Positions 5,401 through 20,184 of a stretch of DNA of 64,000 nt are shown here, in pieces. The position numbers and the translations under genes are program-made. The stretch lies in the NCBI RefSeq assembly GCF_003704095.1, contig NW_020846447.1:1-64000 (forward strand), in the 5' to 3' direction. The notes beneath the pieces are model-generated. The model searched no databases, was not told the origin of the DNA, and saw only the letters and a program-made list of their open reading frames with translations. Every line of letters starts with the position of its first letter. Within the stretch, counting starts at the first letter, position 1. The stretch is from Pocillopora damicornis (Eukaryota).

Positions 5401-8102
5401 ATCACCTAAAAATTATCCTTCACACAAGTAGAATTTTATTCTAAAATGAGCTGCTTGTTATACATGTATGTGTAAGAATGGCAACTTTTAAATCTGGTAT
5501 CATCTACATTAGGGTAACCAGTCTGAAAAGCAGATTAAATGTCTTGATGAGACAAGATTAATCTTGTCTCCCTTAGTTTGTAACATCAGACAAGGAACAA
5601 TACGAATAAAGGCAGTAAGTTTCTAAAGAAACTGTATTACTGCATAGGTGAGAGGGTATAACAGGGAAACTTAGTATTATCAACTGAGTTTGTATAATGT
5701 AAATTAGCCACTGTAAAGACTTTCAAAGCTGAATTTTCAAGTGTTAGCCCTACATTAGCGCAGCAAAAGGTGTGCGTAAAAAGGTGTGTGTAAAAAAGCA
5801 TCAGATAAAGACTGTTAACTAATAAAATACAGACAGCTTTGACACTCCTACTCCCTTTTAAATGTTGAATATGAACTTCCATTTCATACCTGTTTAAGCT
5901 GACAAATCAAAGGGATGATGATAGACTGAAAGCATGGATTTCAAGATTTTCATATCCCTAGGACCACGCTTGACTTCATGTGCTTTAAGCTTAAGCACCT
6001 AAAGTTAGGTTTGCTGGTAAATTAGTAGGAAAAGTTTACCAGCAAGCTAGGACTTAATATATCCACCTTATTTTCTTTTTTTTAAGGAAAAAATTCTGAT
6101 TAGCTACCTCCACATCTCTGAGCTCTCCTTCCCACTGGCATCTATTAGGACACTTGACAAAGTAAGAGAGAATCCTTCTCTCACTTGCCTTATCTGGAAA
6201 AATATCCTACAAATAAAATAAGATTGAAATGATGGATACAAAAACAGATCAAAATCAAATTTAATCATTCCTAACTGATTGAGGCTAAGATTAATTTTGG
6301 GATCAATTTTATTGTAGGAAAGTTGTGAACTTAAGTAACATTCTCTCCTCTTCCACTTTCCCTGCTCTTTCACTTTTAGGTACAAGTAGCATATCTGGGG
6401 AACAGAATGAAAGCAGCTAATGTTTCATATATAGAAATTAACTGCAATTACAAAGTTTTAACTTAATATTCAAATAAGTGAGTACATAATGTGACTTTTT
6501 CTAAAGATCTTTGAGCAACTTGACTGAAAAAGGATCTGGTATTAGCCGATGGTTTAAACAAGATATCTTAGTAGTTCATATAGTGTGATCATCCGGGTGA
6601 GTGTAGTTCTGAAAAGAACTGTTGTTGGTGACACTCACCCGGATGATCATGCTATACGAACTACTGATACTCCTGGGTTCAAACCATTTACTTTAAGACA
6701 TCTTAGTTAAGAAAAACCAACTTACTTCGGGAATATAGGCATAACAATTACATGTGTTTTTGGTAAAAATAGCCTTAAAAATTGAGTGAGATGGAGAATA
6801 AGCTTTTTTGTTACAGAAGCACTTGGAATAAACCACTATAGGAAGTACCTTGTCTTTATCCAGTCTTGTTCTGTCTAGTGGGCAGTTAGGATGTTGTATT
6901 CTAAAAAGAGAGAACTCTCGTCAAAAGAAATGCTTCTTTGTGATAAAGTAACATTCAGTGTGTCAACATTCAATGTATATTTTGTAGGGTAATCATCAAG
7001 ATAACGTAGTTGTCCTGAAAATGACCCTGGTTTCATTATGTTGACGAAGAAAACACTGTTTTCGATTGTGAGATCCTATAAAGACACCACTTGTTTTTCA
7101 ACGGTAGTTTTGCAAAAACCCCACTGTGAAAAGCAAAGCAACAAAATTTTGCCCGCATTCACATAATACAGTGACAAGGACAAGAGATTTTACTTCGCGT
7201 TACATGCATCTATCTGTGTATTACCACAAAATAGAAGATTTGTAATAACAAGAGAACCGTTCTTAGTTCACGTAGTGCGAAATTCTGCAGACTCAATGAC
7301 GAAACATTTCTCGCTGGCAATTGTGCAATGTCATCTACCAGAGAATATGCATCCCAAACTTGAAATTAGGGCAAAATTCAAAGTTTTGCCCACCCACTTG
7401 CCAGATTTAGGCTACTCTTTTCGGACCTTAGAGCTGACATATCGCAAATGTTTGCGTTGAAACAAACTATGAATTTAAAACACGACTTTCAAGATACGTG
7501 CAAAGCTTTTAACTGCTCGGTTTGATTCATTATGACCAGAAGGAAGCTAAAACCAATCAGGATGATTTCATTCCTAACAAGGCTTCAATGCCTCATATTG
7601 CTCGACAATAGAAATATAAAAACAACTAGAACTCCACAATTGGACATCAACATGAAGTTTGAAATTGCCTTGCAGCTTGTTTTTGTCTCACGAGGAGCTA
7701 AGTTCTGCATCAGCTGACTTAGATTCGAACATTTGACTACACTTCTAAAAAAGTTGCATTGATGATGGCATTGGCTCTAAGTAATTACAGAATTATCATC
7801 TGTGAAATATGCTTCTTCTTCAAAAATAGGGGTAGTCCTGTTTCATCTATAATTCATTAGGCATTCGAAGATCAATCGATTCACTCAGACGACAGTTCTG
7901 GAATAACCATTCCAACTTACCGTTTGAAATGTTCATTGAGACAGTCATGGCAAAATCTGTGTCCACATCTAGTTAACACAGCATTTCTTAAAGGTAACTG
8001 GCATATCTGACAGACAAAATCTTCATCTAGTTCTGTAACAAAGTCGTAGTCATAGCCCGATGGAAGTGGCGGCGGACGGCCGCTTTGGTCTCGGTCGGCC
8101 AT
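2465..8102 (-). CDS. TNF receptor-associated factor (TRAF4/TRAF6-like): RING + TRAF zinc fingers + coiled coil + MATH, ~441 aa, 7 exons (8102-7921, 6900-6849, 6206-6108, 5294-5130, 4551-4477, 3595-3518, 3139-2465)
   Basis: RING CQICQLPL...CGHRFCHDCL...CPLDR; DIFPDK...VKCPN; H-x3-C zinc fingers; MATH motifs FVWKI, SDPFYTGKYGYKL, LPWPF, DDTLFI. All introns are GT-AG with consistent phase. Confidence 0.93.
3836..3992. repeat. Minisatellite, 3 copies of a 50-54 bp unit in a TRAF intron
   Basis: GGGTCTCTT(T/C)AC(G/A)ATCTACCC... units start at 3836, 3886 and 3940. Confidence 0.9.
4126..4262. mobile_element. 137-bp palindromic MITE with 8-bp TSD
   Basis: ~40-bp perfect TIR GGATCAATATCAGTATCTGGGCAACTGCCCACCTACCCC; AAAACAGT duplicated at 4118-4125 and 4263-4270. 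Confidence 0.92.
6570..6665. repeat. Intronic foldback with 35-bp arms, probably Penelope-derived
   Basis: AGTAGTTCATATAGTGTGATCATCCGGGTGAGTGT (6570-6604) vs ACACTCACCCGGATGATCATGCTATACGAACTACT (6631-6665). Confidence 0.7.
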
Positions 8103-9818: not shown

Positions 9819-12800
9819 TTATCTTGTATTTACCTGTAAAAGAAGATTTCAGAAATTAATTCTTGCTCTGGTTTTTCCAATTTTATACTGCAACGTGTAT
9901 TGTGGCCAGATTTTGGTCGGAGTTCATCTTACTGTGAGGAAGGGATGGTGGAATTAAAAGCTTAAACCTGTGAAAAGCTAAATCAAAAGTTTGGTAATCC
10001 TGTTTTAAACACACTGACCCTAATCTTTAACTTCTGCCATAAAAAATAGCTGTCATTGTATATTGCTGTTTCTAACGCTCCTTGTTACTCTCACTTAACC
10101 TCCGTCATTATGAAACCAGTGGGAAAAATATCCCGGTTGCGTGCGGTCTGCTTAGAATACCTTGTATAACTTGAGGCCGTTAAATTTACCAATGATAGTT
10201 ATTTATACTTACAATGTCATCGATCTTCAGAATGCTACGAACTGTCTCGGATGCCAACTGAATGGCACTGGTTGACACGAGAAGCGGCTGCAGAACGTTC
10301 TCTTCTAGAATATTAGTAATTGTGCCCTGAAAAACAAAGATATGAACAAAAATGAAATATGAAAAAAGAAAACTGAATAAAACTCTGCCGACAAATAGAA
10401 AAAAAAAACGCCATACGAGTGAAACTGCCCGTAGCACACGGCGTTGAGGTTAACAAGTCAATTTCCCAAGAAAATGTTATGAAACAATGTATCTCGCTGT
10501 GCTCAACTTACATTTCTTAAAGATGCCGGGCACAATTCAAAAACCAAACGCCAAAAGGCCAAACATGATAGAAAACGTCAAGCTATTTAAAGAACTATTG
10601 GAGTTGGACAAAGTATAACAAGAATAACAGACTTCTATATGTAACTGTTGTGGAGTAAAAACGGTCCACAAAATAAACATTTGAACACTTGAATAGAATT
10701 TCCAGGATCTCACCTTCCTGACGTTTATTCCTGCGGTAGTTTCGCCCTTTGCATGCCTGTTCCTTAGCTCCGTGACTGTAGCAATAGGATTCAGACCAGC
10801 ATTCTCGGAGAGTGTGTAAGGGATAACTTCCAACGCCTCTGCAAATGCACGGACACAATACGCCTCCATTCCTGTCAACGTGCGCGCATGTTCAGCCAGC
10901 TTGATGGACACTTCGATCTCTGGAGCTCCGCCTCCCGCTATGAGAGCTCTGTTGATATCAAGAATCAGAATGAATTAAATCAACTAATAAAATGAATAAG
11001 AAATGAACCGGTTGAAGAACAAATATGAAAAATGACTCTGTCCCTGTTAATCTAGTACGAAGTGTGTGAGTAACATGCTACGCCTATAAACCTTCTACCA
11101 TACATATAATCATAGCCAACGTTGAAAAAAAGGAATTCTGTCAGAAATCTTCATATATACCTCTTACTACCCTCGCTTTCTTGGCCCGTACTGTAAGTCA
11201 CAGACCGAGTTATTTCCGCTCGGATTTACGGCCCAAGCGCAAGGTTCCGTAATTTAAAGTACAGACCGAGAAAACAAGATTAGTAAGAGGTATGTACGAA
11301 GATTTCTGATAGAAATCTCTTTTTTTTTTATAACGTTGACAATTATTATATATATTTTAGAAGATTTATAAGCATACTGTGTTAGTCACACTTACAGTTG
11401 CATAACTAAGACTCCGGCTAATGAAGGGGAAGATCTCAATTTAAACAAACTTTGAATTTATGGGGCAGTACAGTGAAATTCGGCCCGTTAAACCAATAGA
11501 AACAAGCTCGAAGTATAAAGGAAGTATCAGAGTAAAGAAAAATGTTTAGCAATCATAACAAGCTTGAGAAAAAGGCTTTGGTACTTGCATATCCACACTC
11601 TTCCTCCTTTTGAGTCAATGTTTATGGACATTTTTCCTCCCCTACCACCTTCAAGGGAAATGATCTTCCACTAAGATATCGTTTTCATGATTCACAAGTT
11701 ACCTCTTCTTAACCAAGCATCTCACAACACAAAGAGCATCATGAAGTGATCGCTCAGCCTCTTCCAAGACAAGCTTGTTGGATCCTCTCACCAATATGCT
11801 GACAGTTCGACCAGGATTGGTAACCCCTGTCACCTTGACTACTTTGCTGGTACCCAGGGGTACTTCCTCCACAAGCTCTGCAGTTGCCAACATCTCTGGA
11901 GTGAAGTGATCCAAACTGGCAATTGGTTTACATCCTAAGCTCTGAAATCAAGAAGATAACAAATTTACTGCATTCATCTCGACGCAAAGTTCTGGTAGTG
12001 ACAACCTAAAATTGTTGTTTAAATCACGACTGACTCAAATCAAGATTAATATCAATCTACTTATAAGTTCTAAACACTTTCAGAAAAAAAAACCAGCTTA
12101 CAGTTTATTTTCAGCCGTTTTCCCTCCAATTAAGATTCAACTCTATATAACGTTACAACAAATATACGCTTTCACACAAGAATCTTGAGACAAAAATGTG
12201 CACCACCTTTCCAATAACCTCTACAAACTTCAAAATGGAGTTCTTTGGCTGCATCTTTCTACTATTTGTGACTATTTTCCCCTGGATTGCTTGAATAAAT
12301 TCCTTAGCCCCACAAGGTTCACTTACCTTGCATATGAATTCTATTTCATCTCTCTCTATGTCCCTAACAACAAGAATCTTCATTTTGTTCAAGAAATGGA
12401 GGGCTAAGTCACTGACAGCATCTCTGTAAAACAGAAAACAGCAGAGAATATTAACAGAGAAAGATAAAAACCTCGCAAAAATTTAAACTTGTGCCTTCCC
12501 AGCCTGGTCCTAAAATAACAACCCAATCAACAAGACTACAAATAAACACAAAAGCTGAAAAATGTGCACAACATACCTTAGAATAGATTTTTGGATGAGC
12601 AGAACATTACATCCTGCCTTTTTTATTTTCTTGCAGATATCAAGGATGTACTGACGTTCCTCGCGTAGCACCCTGTCCATCTGTGTGTAGTCACTAACTA
12701 TTACTTGATTTTCCATCTGATAGGAAAACAATTCATAGTCTGGTCAATTAACCCTTTACACCTTAACATCAGTATGCATATTCTCCATACTGTTCTCTAT

Positions 12801-15800
12801 AAATTTCCTAATGTGCTGGCAAGGAGAATTTGTTAAGCAATCTAGAGATTCTTCAGTTTGTTATCATTTCCTTTATTCTCATAACCTTAATGTTTGATTC
12901 AGGGGTGATATTGAAAGGAGAATTTAGATGCTGGTCACTCTCAGGAATTAAAGGGTTAAAAAAGGTTTCTTTAATATGATTACTGTGAATTTTTGGGGTG
13001 ATTTTAACTCTGAATATAGTAAACAGAAAATTGGTCTTGTTTATATTAACATCAGAAATCTGAACAGGCTTATGTTACCTAGCCTATCAGCAAAATCAGT
13101 GCACCCCCATGCTTGAAAAACTGCTTATCTTTTACTAAATTAGATACAGATTTGTGAATTTTACTTGCTATCCACACAAAGTTATCAATCCATTCAAACT
13201 TACATCTGTTTTTGGAGGAGAAATACAGAACTGTATAAGTCCAATTTTGGCTTTCTCCACTTGCGATATTCCTCCAGCCAAATGGCTGATTTTTTGTTCC
13301 AGAACAAGACCCTCCACCAGCTCTGTATCATCTACTGTGCCACTGAAAAACAAAACACAACCATCTCAATGAAGAAGGTAAAAGAATTGTTAACATTGTT
13401 CAAGACCATGCCAAGATGAGAAGAGGAAGCAAGAGTTTCCGAAGATGAGTTAATCAAAGCTTGGAGTTAATTCCACAATTCAAGTTATTTGTCTGACAGT
13501 CATGTCACAGACAGAAATTGTGATATCATGAACATTCAAGATAGAAAATTTTCTGAACCAAAACAGACCAAAAATATTCACTATGGTAAAATATCAACAC
13601 TATACAAGGAAACAGCTCAGACAGCACTCAATGGTGCAGATTGATTAATCACAGAAGAATATTATGGGGGCAATCATTTGGTCATCATAGCTGTACACCA
13701 GAGTCCTTGCACACTGTACCCATCTTTACAAATCTTCTTACAGAGAAGCAATTTTGCAGCTTAATGTTGCTACATGGAATCAGAACTGGGAAAAATTTAA
13801 GCAAATCCATTTTAATGACATACCCTAATTTCTGCACAACTCGGATATCTTTAAGGTTAACATTTTCAGCTGTTGCAGGATCAATGACTCTAAGGACAGC
13901 ATCAACCGTGATTGGTGCCAGAAGATTTGAGTACTGAGAGACAACCTAATGAGGAAATGAAAGGAAATATTAAGACCACAAACAACATCTAAAGAGATGG
14001 CAAAATCTCAAAAAAACACTACTCAGATTTAAAGAAGACAAGAATGTCAAAAAAATGCTTTCATGCTGCTTAAAACCTGCTGGAAGTAGAGTGGAGTAGA
14101 GTTAACTACTGTACGGTACTAAATTAACACATAATTGGTGCCAGCCCCATCACCTTAGAACTGAGGGATGTCATTGCACTTTTCAGTAGAGATGCTCTGT
14201 CACTTAAAGCAACTGGCATAGACATGGTTGTCAGTATTTCCACTGCCTTAGCAGCTGCCTTCTCAAAAGATTCAGATACAGTGGTGGGGTGAATTCCTAC
14301 AATGATGAAGAAAGACTGTTAAAAAAAGATCAATACATCTGATCACTTTAATGTCTTTATTTTTGTGACATCTTTCTTACTCTGGAAGGCAAATTTTCCA
14401 GTCCAAATCTTGAGGTACATTTGTACATTATGCTCTCAGAACAAACTTTAAAGATAAATAATTTGTGAGACTCTAATCAACGTTTTCTTTGACTTTTGTT
14501 TTATCTCTAGGACCACAAGTAATTAAAAAAAAAAACAGGAGGTAAACAAGTTGGTACAGATATACTTTAAGAGTTCTCTGACCAAACCTTTCTCAAATAA
14601 TTTTAAGAGAAGTTGTAGGTTGCCTTAAGTGACCTTAACATTACAAAATTAATGAAAAAGTTGTTGGGGGCAATCATTTTTTTTCTCCCTCTCATCTGAA
14701 TAACAAGCCATTGGTTCAAGCAAGCTATTAAATGAAGAGGGTATAATGTCATTCTTTCCATTACACTAAATGTAAATAACTCAAGAAGATGCTAATGTTG
14801 CTCAAACTATCTAGCCAAGCACATTTAAAGAGATAAATCTTACATGGTGTCTGTATCTAATTTCCACATACAATTAATCCTTTTAAGGTGTATGTAGTAA
14901 AAAGTTACCTTTCTCCAGTAGTTTAGCACTAGCACTGAGTAAGCTCCCAGCAATCACTACTACAGTTGTTGTACCATCTCCAGCCTCTATGTCTTGAGCT
15001 TTAGACAACTCTACCAGCTAAAATCACAATAATAGATATACAATTTTAAATCATGTGGTTTAGATGGTACACAAAAGCTGTCATTAGTATCAAAACCTAA
15101 AACTCATTTATGAGAGAAAAGATAACAAACTTTTTACTGCATAACACACAAAAGCACTAGTTTCATTGCAACTCAAAAAGTCAAGCTTAAAAATGTAGTC
15201 CTGGAAACAAGTTACTGCATGAAAAAAATTTATTACTAAGACTCTCAAGGCATTATATATATGAACACAGCAGAGACATTACTTCATACTTTACAGATGG
15301 TCTAAATGTACAACTGTACACCTAACAAGCCCATGTTGATTGCTTCTATTGACTTTAAACGTATCAGTTACAGTAAAGTTGTTGGAGCAACCATTTGATT
15401 TCTCCCTCCCATCTGAATAACAAGCCAGAAATGTGGGCAAGCTATTTAATGAAGAGGGTAAAAACAAACACTTGGTACAGATTCGCATTTTACATCAGTA
15501 GTGGAGCACAGCATGTAACTCCAGCAAGAAACATTAAATACAAATTTTGCAGTAAAAATTATATGCAGTTTAATGTAATTTAACAGAGTTAACAACAAAG
15601 AGCATCAGCTTTCTCTAGTAGTCTGCTGTTGTTGCATATGCGTGTGCGTGGGAATTCCGTGTACTCTTCATTTAAGGCTTTCTTGTGAAAGCTTTGAGTG
15701 TGAACTTTCAGCATTGTTTGAAGTGCCAGCTCATTATCCAGGTAGTTTTTCTCCCTCTTCCTTCCCTCTTTCCACTGTTTATTCAGTATGACTGGTGCCT

Positions 15801-17005
15801 GTTTCCCTTTCCTGCCTGAGAGCTCATGGCTGAGTTGTCAGGATTTGCCAGCCATGGGAGCAGTCTCCATCTAGGAGCTGGCTGCCAATAGTGAAAGCTC
15901 CTGGATGTCTTGGTCACCCAACCTCCACTTAGTGATGCAGTTGTTAATCATAACTAACTAACTTTTTATATCTTTCCTCTCCCTCCACTAACAAGAAACT
16001 CTACTGTATATCTCAATATGGATAAATAACCACTTTACCATTCTTGCAGCTGGGTGCAACACCTGCATTTGCTTCAAAATTGTGGCACCATCATTGGTGA
16101 TTGTTACATCACCATTTCCACTTTGGATCTAAGACAGTAGCCAAGAACACAAACAACAATAAGTTCAATTTTTTGGAATAAGCATTGTACTAAGCTGTAC
16201 AGAAGGGATTTGTTACAATTCCTTGTAAGTGTGTATGAATTGGAACAGAGACCAGTATCTCATCACCCAAAATATCTATGAAAAAATGCAAGAGAGTATA
16301 TAAGGCTGACTAACTCGCAAAGCTGCAAAGCTTAAGGCTGTGGGGCTTAAAACTTGATTTATAAACCTTTTACATCCTATCATAGTTTGGGTGATCATTT
16401 CCTTAATTCTCATAGGGGGTAATATTGTGGGGAGAAATTAGATGCTAGGAATTATTAAGGGCTCAGAGGGTTAAGAGATGGAAATGGAAACCTCTCAAAG
16501 TTGACGGCTGGAAATCAGTCAAAGATGCCGGCTGACAATCTGGCTGAGTGCCAAAAAAAATTGAAAAATATACTTCAAACCTTTATTTCCAGTCTGGATA
16601 ATTTGTCGTATCAAGTCTGTCATCACTTCAATTTCGAATATGTTACAAAAATTCAACATTTAAGCCAAAAAAAGGCTTTGTGAAACCATACAAAGTGAAA
16701 ACGTTCGTTTCACCAACAACACTCCAATAGTGACAAGTCTGCATAGCTCCATTACTACATGTGGCTGTCACTCACCATTTTGTCCATCCCTTTAGGCCCA
16801 AGACTTGTTCTGATCGCATCTGCAACAGCTAAGAACGCAAAATAGTTCTCTTGTAAATCCTCCTATTGTAGATATTGAATCACAGGCAGAAATACTCACC
16901 TTTTGCTGCTGTGATGTTACTCATACGAATCTCGGTGGGCTTATCCTTGTCTTTGAAAGCCCCTTGTTTATTTCCATCTCCAGCGTTTGTCTTCAACTCA
17001 GGCAT
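9819..17005 (-). CDS. CCT4: T-complex protein 1 subunit delta (CCT4), ~533 aa, 13 exons (17005-16900, 16828-16776, 16128-16039, 15017-14909, 14296-14154, 13945-13824, 13342-13204, 12716-12577, 12423-12327, 11941-11703, 10948-10714, 10326-10213, 9833-9819)
   Basis: [55 protein letters not shown] and a C-terminal KIDDIVNTR; all splice phases are consistent. Confidence 0.97.
11060..11393. mobile_element. Foldback non-autonomous element (~110-bp diverged inverted arms) in CCT4 intron 10
   Basis: Arm ...TCAGAAATCTTCATATATACCTCTTACTA (to ~11168) mirrors TAGTAAGAGGTATGTACGAAGATTTCTGA... (from 11281). Confidence 0.75.
12752..12955. mobile_element. piggyBac-type MITE (TTAA TSD, CCCTT...AAGGG ends); many diverged relatives, e.g. 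~9276-9440, 23271-23471, 24090-24295, 28893-29100, 30432-30620, 51843-52047, 58221-58420
   Basis: TTAA|CCCTTTACAC...TTAAAGGG|TTAA; shared core ATCAGTATGCATATTCTCCATACTGTTCTC and GGAGAATTTG. Confidence 0.85.
13612..13694 (-). ncRNA. Candidate box C/D snoRNA in CCT4 intron 6
   Basis: Sense to the host gene: ACAGC-T-ATGATGA (box C) ... GTGATTA (C'-like) ... CTGA (box D)-GCTGT; 5-bp terminal stem; 83 nt. Confidence 0.75.
14611..14743 (-). ncRNA. Candidate box H/ACA snoRNA, copy 1 (CCT4 intron 4)
   Basis: Hairpin CCCTCTTCAT...ATGAGAGGG, H box AGAAAA, hairpin TTGCC...GGCAA, then ACA + 3 nt; 133 nt; paralogue in intron 3. Confidence 0.75.
15331..15460 (-). ncRNA. Candidate box H/ACA snoRNA, copy 2 (CCT4 intron 3)
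   Basis: Same 5' hairpin (CCCTCTTCATT...TTATTCAGATGGGAGGG), ANANNA hinge (AAATCA), compensated 3' stem GTTGCT/AGCAAT, then ACA + 3 nt; 130 nt. Confidence 0.75.
15589..15947 (+). other. ~360-nt structured element antisense within CCT4 intron 3 (unknown ncRNA or retroelement terminal repeat)
   Basis: Terminal pairings TTAACAAC/GTTGTTAA and GCATCA/TGATGC; internal hairpins with G-U wobbles on the + strand. Confidence 0.45.
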
Positions 17006-17218
17006 TGTGAATAAATTCCTCGATTAATATCCTTACTCTTTAACGTGTAAACTTTACAATCAAGTTCTGTAGCAAGACGATGAAAACGGATTGTATAGGA
17101 AAACCCTAATGCTATGGCTAAAGAGAGCCACACCAGCTGAAAAAAGCTCTGCATAGACTGGTGCTGAATGACTAGAATTCATGCAGGCGTACATAACGTG
17201 TTCAATAAAGCCTACGAT
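17006..17218. promoter_or_regulatory. Putative bidirectional promoter, CCT4 / DMAC1-like
   Basis: Divergent ATGs 213 bp apart; YY1-like ATATGGCG overlaps the DMAC1-like start. Confidence 0.65.
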
Positions 17219-18404
17219 ATGGCGTCTTCCTCTAACTCAGAAGAGAACAAGAAACTTCCTCCGTTAGAAAAGTTACCTGATGTAGTGGAAGAACCAAAAC
17301 CGGTTTATAAGGAGGTATGGGTATCCTTCTTGTCTGTACGTGATAAATATATTTTTATACAGCCTGGATATTATGGAAAGTGGCGTCACCGTATGCAAGT
17401 CACACCGCAATTGAATGTGTACAGAGAGTACCAATTGTACTGTATCGACGTCGTGCGAGTGTGTTACTTTTTGAATTGGTTACCAAGTTGTATTGGTATT
17501 TCTTTAATTGTTATTTAATTATCTCCCAGATCAAATTTGTAATTCTCCTTACTGTCAACCATCCAATTCTTACAGTGTTAGTTCAGAGAATTTACTTTTG
17601 GATTAACTAATTTTCCCCAAATTTATATTTTTCTTTATTCTCATCACTTATCTGGTTGATATTGTATTGATATTGTGAGGAGAAATTCTGTCTTGGTCAC
17701 TCGTGAAAGATGAAGGGTTAAAAAACTAATGAAATAATGTAACTTGATGGTTGTTTTCATCCATAACCTCCTTTTTTAATTTATGCATCTTTTTCACATT
17801 CATCTTCTTTTTCTTACACAGGAAAATACCAATGACAGTTGGTCAGCATTGGTTAGGAAGCTCGACATAGAGTTTAATGAGGATTGTGTGAGTTGTAAGT
17901 TCATTGGTGCATCAGTGTGTTATGTTTGTGGATACATCGCGTTGAATACTGTCAAGACTATCCCAGCTTCGAACATGCCAGCAAAGGTCATGACTGGATT
18001 ATTTGGTGTGGGTATGTGAGACTTTTTCTTTGATGAAAACATGCCAAAATCTTTTCTTAAAAGTAAATGATGAAACAATCCTTGCAGTTGAACTGCATGT
18101 ATTTAGGGGATTGCAATTAAAGAAGCCTGAAAATATTAAGGCATTGACACAGTTTGAAACTGTGCCAACCAGATCATAGTTGGGTACTATTATCAGCATG
18201 AAGAAAACTGAAAAAACGTGCTTCATGGGGTTCAAACCAGAATGCATTCCTCCCTCATTTAGGAACACTGCATCAATGTTACTTCAATTTTTCTTTCACC
18301 TAGGACTTTTTGGGATTGGAACACTCAGACTTTTTAAAAGTCCGGCTGAACTGGCGATCGACAGACCCTCGAACAAGAGCTCAGGCAAGGACAGTTGGTG
18401 GTGA
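17219..18404 (+). CDS. DMAC1: DMAC1/TMEM261-like (DUF4536) small mitochondrial membrane protein, ~128 aa, exons 17219-17314, 17822-18011, 18304-18404
   Basis: DCVSCKFIG motif (cf. CxSCR of DUF4536) followed by two Gly-rich hydrophobic segments; in-frame GT-AG splicing. Confidence 0.65.
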
Positions 18405-19412
18405 CAGTGCTGTTGAAAAATATCCATGAGGGAACAAATTATTGTTACTATAAATGTAACTTCCTTTCACATGTTACTTCATCTGTCAAACCTATAACAC
18501 CTACAAGTGATTAATATGTAATTTCTCCTAGTGATTCAAATACATTATCTGGCTAACAGGTAATGAGAACTGAGAAGTTTATCATTTGGAAGGTGTTATT
18601 TTGATAGAACACCAAATTCTCCAGTCTAGTTCTCAAGGTAATGTATAGCAGTCAGAAGGGAGACTTACTTGTTGGATCTTGGGAGTTAAGGAGGTAATCG
18701 AGGAGAAACATTTGTAACAACTGTAAACCAGAAAACAGCAGCTTGTAAGATTCGATTATAAACTGCTGTTATGGAAATTGCTTTAAGGTACTTTTATGAA
18801 GGGACCCTACAGCTTGTCAGTATTGAAAATAGGACTCCATAATCTGGCTGAAGTCCAATCTACTGGACAAGAGATGTTTTTGGAGAGCTTATGTTACTTT
18901 TGTCTTTAAGTGTGTATGTTAAACATTTCCAATGATGCATAATTTACTCAGCACTACCCAGAAACACAGTGGATATGGACTGTAGATTGTAAAATGCTAA
19001 AAACAATGTTTTCAGTAATTTGATTGTAAGACATATCTCTGTTAAGAAGTTTTGAACAATGGAGTTCTAACTGAACATTTTAAATACTCAGGATAAAGTT
19101 TTTGAACATTTCTTTCTTTCCTTCTTTTTGTAGATGATTCTTGTGATAGCCCTCTCCCACTTTCTCCAGGCCACCTTACCCCTCCCCTAATACACCTACC
19201 CTGCCCATCACTAGCAAAAAAGGTAATTGCTCTTTGATATCACAAGATTTATTCAAGAAATCAAAACTGATATTAGAGATCAAACACTTCCCATGAGAAG
19301 AAGATGAAAAGAGCTTGATTTCCATTCATATCTATCTACTACACCATTAAAATGTGGTTTGGAATTTTACTTTCCTATTATTGTAATTTTTTCTGCAGTT
19401 TATTTCCCCCCC

Positions 19413-19413
19413 C

Positions 19414-19452
<39 letters not shown>
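19413..19452. repeat. (CT)n microsatellite
   Basis: ~20 CT units with one interruption. Confidence 0.95.
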
Positions 19453-19453
<1 letters not shown>

Positions 19454-20184
19454 AAAAAAATAATTTTCAGCCAAAATGCGTTAAAAAAAACTCTTGTGCC
19501 TTGTACTCCTAAAAATTGATCTTAATTTGCGAAACGTAAAAAATTCCTTAAACCATGAGTCTTCTGAAAAGATGAGCTCGGTAATTTAAGCCAATTTGTG
19601 ATGTTCGCGGCCCTATCAAAAATGGGCTTCCGGGTGCCGAAGTGATTTTCCCACTCGTGGCTAGTACGCGCGCGTGAGGTGTTTCAATCATGATCTTGAC
19701 CGGACTGTAACCATATTTCTTTTTCTATTTCCGGTGTATTGAGATCATCCGTTTGAGAGTTTGCGTGGAGGTCTCGTGTCTTTAATCGACTATCCGTGAA
19801 AAGGAGGCATAGAATACTTTTTTGGAAACTGTTTTATAGGTTAGCAACGGTAAAGAAGTGCAAACAGCCTTTTAAAAACTTGTTCAAATTCATGAGCGAA
19901 AGCAAAGTACAGCGCAAACTAAAGCGCAAAGTACAGCGCAAAGTACAAAAATCGACCCGAGATGACCTCCTGAAGATAATTTCCTTTGTTGCCTGTCATA
20001 AATAGAGCGCTCACCCTTTGGGAATCGGTTGTTCAGAGTTCCCCGCTCATCAGGATGCTACCCAATATTACGTCATCAATCACGCAAGAATGGGAATACA
20101 GGGTACGGACAGACTCATCTAAGAAATTTTCAAACTTTCAGAATGGAAAATAATTTCTTGAAAATTCGGGAGTAACTCTGGTTT

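What the first reader, a model, noticed from the sequence alone, without database searches (positions are those of the whole stretch)
14611..15460. Duplicated H/ACA snoRNA pair hidden in adjacent CCT4 introns
Seen: two ~130-nt paralogous segments in introns 3 and 4, sense to CCT4, each reading hairpin-ANANNA-hairpin-ACA+3 nt. Stems show compensatory changes (TTGCC/GGCAA vs TTGCT/AGCAA) and apical loops diverge. The 3' pocket 5' strand (CCAACA) is conserved, and its 3' side begins 15 nt before ACA in both copies. Known: chaperonin and translation genes often host snoRNAs (human TCP1, CCT6A), but I know of none in human CCT4. Inference: the 5' pocket (UCAU / AUUCAGAUG) could pair imperfectly with the 28S rRNA segment CAUCUAAUUAGUGA.
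Basis: partly seen in the sequence, partly recalled or inferred. Interest (0 to 1): 0.7.

Follow-up and report, generated by a model that had tools for sequence, protein, structure and literature searches.

The report
Coral CCT4 intronic H/ACA snoRNA pair
Two neighbouring introns of the chaperonin gene CCT4 each hold a conserved, uncatalogued 130-base sequence built like a box H/ACA small nucleolar RNA, predicted to guide pseudouridine marks on ribosomal RNA; this is an ordinary arrangement, and the exact target sites are untested.

Summary
Two paralogous ~130-nt segments (15331-15459 and 14611-14742, minus strand) lie sense to CCT4 in introns 3 and 4, whose splice joints are confirmed by RNA reads. 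They fold as hairpin-hinge-hairpin on that strand only (z -3.4). A DNA search of the genome finds only these two copies. Eleven homologous copies on 10 metagenome contigs all sit in the same two CCT4 introns. Box H (ANANNA) and ACA are kept in 12 of 12 aligned rows while the flanks are unalignable. No Rfam family reaches its cut-off; the best match is nematode ceN38 (27 bits, cut-off 50). The 5' pocket best fits the 28S uridine equivalent to human 3694, the SNORA27 site (rank 1; 2-3% of shuffles), but at 18 nt from box H and on a non-coral stand-in rRNA. The 3' pocket's target is unresolved. Expression as a discrete RNA is untested. Verdict: a real new member of a known class in a known layout.

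The parts
15331..15459 (-). Box H/ACA snoRNA-like gene, intron-3 copy (ends predicted: 1 nt before the first stem to ACA+3)
14611..14742 (-). Box H/ACA snoRNA-like gene, intron-4 copy (ends predicted)
   Evidence: full-length sub-threshold ceN38 match at exactly 14611-14742
15396..15401 (-). Box H (AAAUCA) of the intron-3 copy
15334..15336 (-). Box ACA of the intron-3 copy
14679..14684 (-). Box H (AAAAAA) of the intron-4 copy
14614..14616 (-). Box ACA of the intron-4 copy
15412..15455 (-). 5' hairpin guide region, intron-3 copy (left arm about 15455-15448, right arm about 15419-15412), predicted to pair around the 28S U equivalent to human 3694
   Evidence: prediction on a stand-in rRNA
14695..14738 (-). 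5' hairpin guide region, intron-4 copy (left arm about 14738-14730, right arm about 14702-14695), same prediction
15347..15384 (-). 3' hairpin pocket, intron-3 copy (left CAACA 15384-15380, right CAAUA 15351-15347); target unresolved
14627..14666 (-). 3' hairpin pocket, intron-4 copy (left CAACA 14666-14662, right CACUU 14631-14627); target unresolved
15018..16038 (-). CCT4 intron 3 (host intron)
   Evidence: spliced joints in raw reads and contigs
14909..15017 (-). CCT4 exon 4, between the two copies
14297..14908 (-). CCT4 intron 4 (host intron)
   Evidence: joint read with the cut one place to the right, GT-AG

Best explanation
Introns 3 and 4 of CCT4 each carry one copy of a conserved two-hairpin sequence with boxes H and ACA, likely two paralogous box H/ACA snoRNAs that are released by splicing and predicted to guide rRNA pseudouridylation. 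Shown: location, host splicing, fold, boxes, two copies in the genome, and conservation in the same introns elsewhere. Inferred from the established H/ACA pathway: co-transcription with CCT4, trimming of the excised intron to about 130 nt, loading of dyskerin/Cbf5, Nop10, Nhp2 and Gar1, and pairing of each pocket around a target uridine. Predicted 5' target: the 28S uridine equivalent to human 3694, the site served by vertebrate SNORA27 (about 45%). The 3' target is open. The pair likely arose by duplication into the neighbouring intron before the sampled lineages split. Confidence below is for the class and mechanism, not for the site.
For: Strand-specific fold, z -3.4 versus -1.1 and -0.15. 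Two matches in the 234-Mb genome. The pattern scan gave 11 loci on 10 metagenome contigs, and all 10 carry CCT4 exons that place the copy in intron 3 or 4. Window versus L016: only exons (with the exon 1-2 stretch) and the two snoRNA segments align. The 3' hairpin, which the search pattern did not fix, is 0.68-0.85 identical against 0.33-0.58 for 60-nt flanks, with exon-5 third positions at 0.60-0.70. Box H fits ANANNA in 12 of 12 rows with variable N positions, and ACA is invariant. 96.5% of 339 cells are paired and 4 of 31 pairs have two-sided changes, against 31-55% for slid controls. Sub-threshold full-length sense-strand hits are mostly H/ACA families. The 3694-equivalent ranks 1 of 1659 uridines in 4 of 4 energy scans, with 8 + 9-10 pairs in all 12 rows and 9 of 300 shuffles reaching it; 2 of 100 shuffles reach it by energy. 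An 18-nt spacing has a tested precedent in SNORA22 (PMC6984369, section 10).
Against: No direct sign of a discrete RNA: poly(A) raw reads give depth 0-1 over both copies, and the contigs that cover them span the introns flatly; such libraries are not a fair test. Covariation is weak (8-26 of 500 shuffles, related sequences). The 3694 fit needs 18 nt to box H against the usual ~15 (PMC6049503), 3-4 unpaired target bases and a reshaped upper stem. The 13-18 range was opened after I had noticed the site. The target stretch comes from a non-coral eukaryote (L082), because it is deleted in the genome's own decayed 28S copy, where the remaining letters hint at a mismatch. Discounting one pair raises the null to 11 of 100. 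With 14-16 nt spacing and pair counting the site is not in the top 7. The 3' pocket has no conserved significant target (140 of 300 shuffles).
Confidence: 0.85

Rival explanations
1. Same class, different 5' target: the 28S uridine equivalent to human 3797 (the SNORA48 site), at a canonical 16 nt from box H.
For: Scores 10.5 for all six distinct guides, independent of the variable A/U at the top of the left arm, on the genome's own decayed 28S. Rank 3 and 8 of 1659 at 14-16 nt. The best Rfam match, ceN38 (E 0.0032), shares the left-arm UUCAU and a right-arm UUCAG that by inspection fit this site. The site is fully modified in human (PMC6182160 table passage).
Against: Not above chance (shuffle maxima average 11.4-11.5). 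Needs bulges. The right arm is only -5.4 to -6.0 kcal/mol on the intact context. ceN38 did not appear for the other two copies scanned, and I found no paper giving its target.
Confidence: 0.2
2. Same class; the 5' pocket guides a uridine in the 28S hairpin just after the P-loop (context CAUCUG-U-C-AAAUGA), a site not listed as modified in human.
For: Canonical geometry: 14 nt from box H, 6+6 pairs in 2 of 12 rows and 6+5 in the rest, upper stem left intact. The context is present in the genome's own 28S fragment and matches the Rfam consensus on the 3' side.
Against: 37-72 of 100 shuffles reach the best strict scores of the two window copies. The own copy is decayed with many CG-to-TG changes, so one paired base may be an artefact; laying reads did not settle it. 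The human position I infer for it (about 4180) does not occur in PMC6182160.
Confidence: 0.15
3. The 3' pocket of the intron-3 copy guides an 18S uridine next to human 863 (SNORA24 region), and the intron-4 copy has lost or switched this target.
For: 12 contiguous Watson-Crick pairs at 14 nt from ACA; score 13, 1 of 100 shuffles under strict rules. 7 of 10 homologs still score 9.5.
Against: 21 of 300 shuffles under relaxed rules; 7-7.5 in the intron-4 copy, L017 and L021. By the register of Gm867 in PMC6182160 the predicted U is 862, not the modified 863, and the true 863 position scores 0 in 11 of 12 rows. The invariant C at the top of the pocket would stay unpaired. The target is a fungal stand-in.
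Confidence: 0.25
4. Not a snoRNA: a conserved intronic element of another kind (cis-regulatory hairpins, miRNA-like precursor) or a decayed repeat.
For: No Rfam match at cut-off. No reads showing a discrete RNA. The 5' hairpin alone gives chance-level miRNA-family matches.
Against: Only two genomic matches. Both boxes are conserved at the right places with the pocket top 15-16 nt from ACA. Conservation starts at the first stem and ends at ACA.
Confidence: 0.07

Closest known systems
Vertebrate SNORA27 / ACA27 (Rfam RF00443; guides human 28S 3694 and 4522, hosted in RPL21; PMC6466398 table passage)
   Same: Two-hairpin H/ACA layout. The 5' guide arms align with ours (left UUCAc/uUU, right AUUCA), and in L012/L013 the hinge reads AAAGGA-AAUA as in the family consensus. 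Same predicted 5' target.
   Different: 13 and 11.8 bits against a cut-off of 64, which is chance level. Pocket-to-box spacing is 18 nt here and 14 in the family consensus. The 3' pocket does not fit the 4522 site. Different host gene.
Nematode ceN38 (Rfam RF01628)
   Same: Best Rfam match: full length, sense strand, ends coincide with the predicted RNA, E 0.0032.
   Different: 27.1 bits against 50; seen for 1 of the 3 copies scanned; 5' stems poorly paired in the model; its target and host were not found in print.
Sponge H/ACA snoRNA duplicated in neighbouring RPL13A introns (PMC3412847, section 7)
   Same: One H/ACA snoRNA per intron, duplicated in cis into the next intron of a housekeeping gene in an early-branching animal.
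   Different: Host is a ribosomal protein gene; sequence relationship not tested; the sponge copies are 94% alike, ours 75%.
Human SNORA22 (listed in CCT6P1; PMC6466398, PMC6984369)
   Same: H/ACA snoRNA in a chaperonin-subunit locus; shown to modify a uridine 18 nt from its box.
   Different: Different family and targets; no Rfam similarity seen.

Membership tests
Eukaryotic box H/ACA snoRNA | Hairpin-hinge-hairpin-tail fold | tested here: met
Eukaryotic box H/ACA snoRNA | Box H (ANANNA) in the hinge | tested here: met
   12 of 12 rows, same register, N positions vary
Eukaryotic box H/ACA snoRNA | Box ACA after the second hairpin | tested here: met
   invariant in 12 of 12 rows; conservation ends there
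Eukaryotic box H/ACA snoRNA | Mature 3' end 3 nt after ACA; stable discrete RNA | not testable with these tools
   only poly(A)/cDNA libraries were offered; depth 0-1 in raw reads
Eukaryotic box H/ACA snoRNA | Internal-loop pocket about 15 nt from the box in each hairpin | tested here: inconclusive
   3' hairpin: pocket top 15-16 nt from ACA, met. 5' hairpin: nearly closed in the free fold; best target needs 18 nt
Eukaryotic box H/ACA snoRNA | At least 8 guide-substrate pairs around an rRNA/snRNA uridine | tested here: inconclusive
   met on stand-in rRNA for the 5' pocket (17-18 pairs); 7,183 nt of partial stand-ins and decayed own fragments; no snRNA available
Eukaryotic box H/ACA snoRNA | Bound by dyskerin/Cbf5, Nop10, Nhp2, Gar1 | not testable with these tools
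   needs immunoprecipitation
Intron-encoded animal snoRNA | Sense to an expressed, spliced housekeeping host, one per intron | tested here: met
SNORA27 (RF00443) | Score at or above the gathering threshold (64 bits) | tested here: not met
   13 and 11.8 bits; not listed for the intron-4 copy
SNORA27 (RF00443) | 5' pocket for 28S 3694 | tested here: inconclusive
   rank 1 of 1659 but at 18 nt and on a stand-in
SNORA27 (RF00443) | 3' pocket for 28S 4522 | tested here: not met
   the context is in the own 28S end fragment that was scanned and is not among the top sites
ceN38 (RF01628) | Score at or above the gathering threshold (50 bits) | tested here: not met
   27.1 bits for one copy
H/ACA scaRNA | CAB box (UGAG) in an apical loop | tested here: not met
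   absent from both hairpins in 11 of 11 copies checked
Dispersed repeat | Many genomic copies | tested here: not met
   2 matches (the tool warns that counts are lower bounds)

The most novel reading that the evidence does not exclude
This is the coral counterpart of the SNORA27 5' guide domain, joined to an unrelated 3' domain, and its unusually invariant 5' pocket works in two registers: 18 nt from box H on the conserved 3694-equivalent uridine, and 14 or 16 nt on a second 28S uridine, possibly one not modified in human. It would be a dual-register guide conserved across corals and a direct case of hairpin shuffling between animal snoRNA families.
Probability: 0.12. Interest if true: 0.5.

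Novelty: new member of a known kind. Interest (0 to 1): 0.3.

Why it matters
Rfam does not cover this RNA, and my paper searches showed no coral H/ACA catalogue, so it adds a family and a host gene to a thin record for early-branching animals. It gives testable predictions for where coral rRNA is pseudouridylated and for how far the ~15-nt ruler can stretch. The layout itself (one guide per intron, duplicated next door, housekeeping host) is already described in sponges and would not surprise a specialist.

Tried and rejected
Rfam at cut-off: nothing in the window or in the homolog loci; E-value mode over 12000-20000 gave only chance hits. Intact rRNA of this animal could not be obtained. The assembly holds only decayed fragments and a mitochondrial rRNA. 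Two viral-contig scans gave chance matches only. Reads laid on the 28S fragment were none or uninformative. Fungal and protist rDNA found as contaminants in prokaryote assemblies served as stand-ins. U2 was not found by family or motif, so snRNA targets are untested. A genome search for SNORA27 gave three chance-level hits elsewhere, which says nothing either way. The structure string given was off by one column in the 3' hairpin: one search is void, one search is the corrected count, and model R1 (no third copy in the window or loci) carries the error. Whole-intron global alignments failed for intron 4, where the shuffled control gave the same values, and were replaced. The tree of copies has one supported fork only. 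L016 (same contig as L015) and L020 (same copy sequence as L013) were left out of alignment A1. Small word shares were not used as evidence.

Full report
Observation. The stretch 14611-15460 lies in a minus-strand gene whose exons translate to TCP-1 delta/CCT4. Raw poly(A) reads and RNA contigs join 16039 to 15017 and 14909 to 14296, which defines introns 3 and 4. The numbering assumes the two upstream coding exons read are exons 1 and 2. Each intron holds one copy of a ~130-nt segment; the copies are 75% identical. On the minus strand both fold as hairpin, single-stranded hinge, hairpin and tail, with z -3.36 and -3.40 (1 of 200 shuffles each). The plus strand gives -1.11 and -0.15. A DNA search of the 234-Mb genome with the intron-3 copy returns only these two places (the tool treats counts as lower bounds).

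Conservation. A gapped 24-letter pattern from the 5' hairpin found 11 loci on 10 metagenome contigs, holding 11 copies. All 10 contigs carry CCT4 exons that put the copy in intron 3 (five copies) or intron 4 (six), and one contig has both. These hosts are distant from the window: exon-5 third codon positions are 60-70% identical, and against L016 only the exons, the exon 1-2 stretch and the two snoRNA segments align. Because the pattern fixed part of the 5' hairpin, the fair test is the 3' hairpin: 0.68-0.85 identity against 0.33-0.58 for 60-nt flanks. Alignment A1 has 12 rows, 11 distinct; L016 and L020 were left out as duplicates. In it box H fits ANANNA in every row, in one register 2 nt after the first stem, with the N positions free, and ACA is invariant. 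The consensus fold is paired in 96.5% of 339 cells, with 4 of 31 pairs changed on both sides; slid controls give 31-55% and 8-26 of 500 shuffles reach the observed values, so covariation is supportive but weak. The window's intron-3 3' hairpin is closer to other intron-3 copies (0.81-0.85) than to intron-4 copies (0.71-0.73). This suggests the duplication predates these lineages, although the tree itself is mostly unresolved.

Class. The features named in PMC6049503 (abstract, introduction and discussion read) are two hairpins with pockets, boxes H and ACA, about 15 nt from box to target, and at least 8 guide pairs. Fold and boxes are met. No Rfam family reaches its cut-off. In narrow E-value scans the full-length sense-strand hits are mostly H/ACA families: ceN38 at 27.1 bits (E 0.0032), whose ends coincide with 14611-14742, and SNORA27, SNORA75, SNORA41 and others at chance level. 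There is no CAB box in 11 of 11 copies checked. Expression as a discrete RNA is untested: the one raw run is poly(A)-selected, about 12% of it was read, and depth over the copies is 0-1 against 12-55 on exons; contigs that cover the introns do so flatly.

Targets. The assembly has no intact nuclear rRNA by my searches and no U2. I therefore scanned 7,183 nt: decayed own fragments plus partial fungal and protist rDNA, 1659 uridines, with gaps in coverage and no snRNA. With strict 14-17 nt spacing, and before the L080-L082 stand-ins were added, no 5' site of the window copies beat chance (37 and 72 of 100 shuffles). After noticing that the weak SNORA27 alignment matched pocket to pocket, I allowed 13-18 nt and up to two extra unpaired bases. 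One site then stood out: 14.25 against 11.25 for the next, 8 + 9-10 pairs in all 12 rows, 9 of 300 shuffles. It ranks first of 1659 in all four energy scans, with 2 of 100 shuffles, or 11 of 100 if the last pair is discounted. Its neighbours at -20, -14, +3, +9 and +15 in L082 are U, C, A, A and U (by inspection). These match the modified bases listed at human 28S 3674, 3680, 3697, 3703 and 3709 (PMC6182160, table passages), so the site is human 3694, 100% pseudouridine and assigned to SNORA27 (PMC6466398, passages). Against it: the spacing is 18 nt; the range was widened after the fact; the stretch is deleted in the animal's own decayed copy, where the leftover letters and the Rfam consensus hint at a C opposite a guide U; and the upper stem must partly open. 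An 18-nt spacing was shown to work for SNORA22, and the same section warns that an added U-G pair in the frog substrate went with loss of activity (PMC6984369, section 10 read); our pairing also starts with a U-G. Two canonical-spacing rivals remain, the 3797-equivalent and a uridine just after the P-loop, neither above chance.

The 3' pocket is unresolved. The intron-3 copy makes 12 Watson-Crick pairs with 18S next to human 863 (1 of 100 shuffles strict, 21 of 300 relaxed). The predicted U is 862 by the Gm867 register, four rows fall to 7-7.5, and across guides the best site is no better than chance (140 of 300).

Mechanism. Shown: position, splicing of the host introns, fold, boxes, conservation. 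Inferred from the established H/ACA pathway: co-transcription with CCT4, release by splicing and trimming, assembly with dyskerin, Nop10, Nhp2 and Gar1, and pseudouridylation of rRNA. Predicted: the 5' pocket acts on the 3694-equivalent (about 45%), the 3797-equivalent (20%), the post-P-loop uridine (15%), or something unseen.

Comparison and novelty. It works like a standard two-pocket H/ACA guide. It is not a scoring member of SNORA27 or ceN38, and its 3' pocket does not fit SNORA27's second site. Duplication of an H/ACA snoRNA into the neighbouring intron is described in sponge RPL13A (PMC3412847, passages and first part of section 7 read). Movement of snoRNAs among broadly expressed hosts is the general rule (PMC3511168, passages), and independent evolution of the two domains is documented (PMC6984369, section 10 and first part of section 6). 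Paper searches for snoRNA with CCT4, Nematostella, coral, SNORA27/ACA27, ceN38 and modification maps (listings and abstract starts only) showed no report of this RNA. Several nematode and fly snoRNA papers were not held, one of two supplement files of PMC1474057 was not searchable, and bioRxiv supplements are closed, so ceN38's target and fly guides remain unchecked. Earlier scan notes report other snoRNAs in CCT4 of other genomes (unchecked leads); look-ups by sequence, place and relatives found nothing. Verdict: real, a new member of a known kind, interest 0.3.

Noticed in passing
window 15548-15947: A ~400-nt repeat inside CCT4 intron 3, just upstream of the snoRNA: many diverged RNA reads and contigs from other loci lie on it, and it has no match in the homologous introns. 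Family not identified.
   Followed up: partly
window 12748-12959, with related pieces at 16391-16446 and 17622-17694: A ~210-nt element with short terminal inverted repeats, MITE-like by appearance.
   Followed up: no
L017:1-430: This intron-3 copy has an intron-4-type 5' flank and 5' hairpin but an intron-3-type 3' half and downstream flank: gene conversion between the paralogs or a metagenome misassembly.
   Followed up: partly
window 17219 onward, + strand: A spliced-looking gene starts about 215 nt from the CCT4 start codon, head to head, suggesting a shared promoter. Not identified.
   Followed up: no
window about 7920-8102, - strand: A coding exon with a C3HC4 RING-like motif downstream of CCT4; TRAF-like by recall only.
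   Followed up: no
G000 (L003, L005, L006, L070, L071): The searches found only decayed nuclear rDNA fragments, one interrupted by a ~950-nt high-copy repeat, and no U2: multicopy RNA genes seem to be missing from the assembly.
   Followed up: partly
L023-L041, L080-L082: Prokaryote assemblies in the genome collection carry contaminant eukaryotic (mostly fungal-type) rDNA contigs.
   Followed up: partly
window 14627-14631 and L021: The window's intron-4 copy and L021 share a changed 3' pocket strand (CACUU for CAAUA) and a U at the top of the 5' left arm, and form the only supported fork (96/97): a possible lineage-specific target switch of one paralog.
   Followed up: partly
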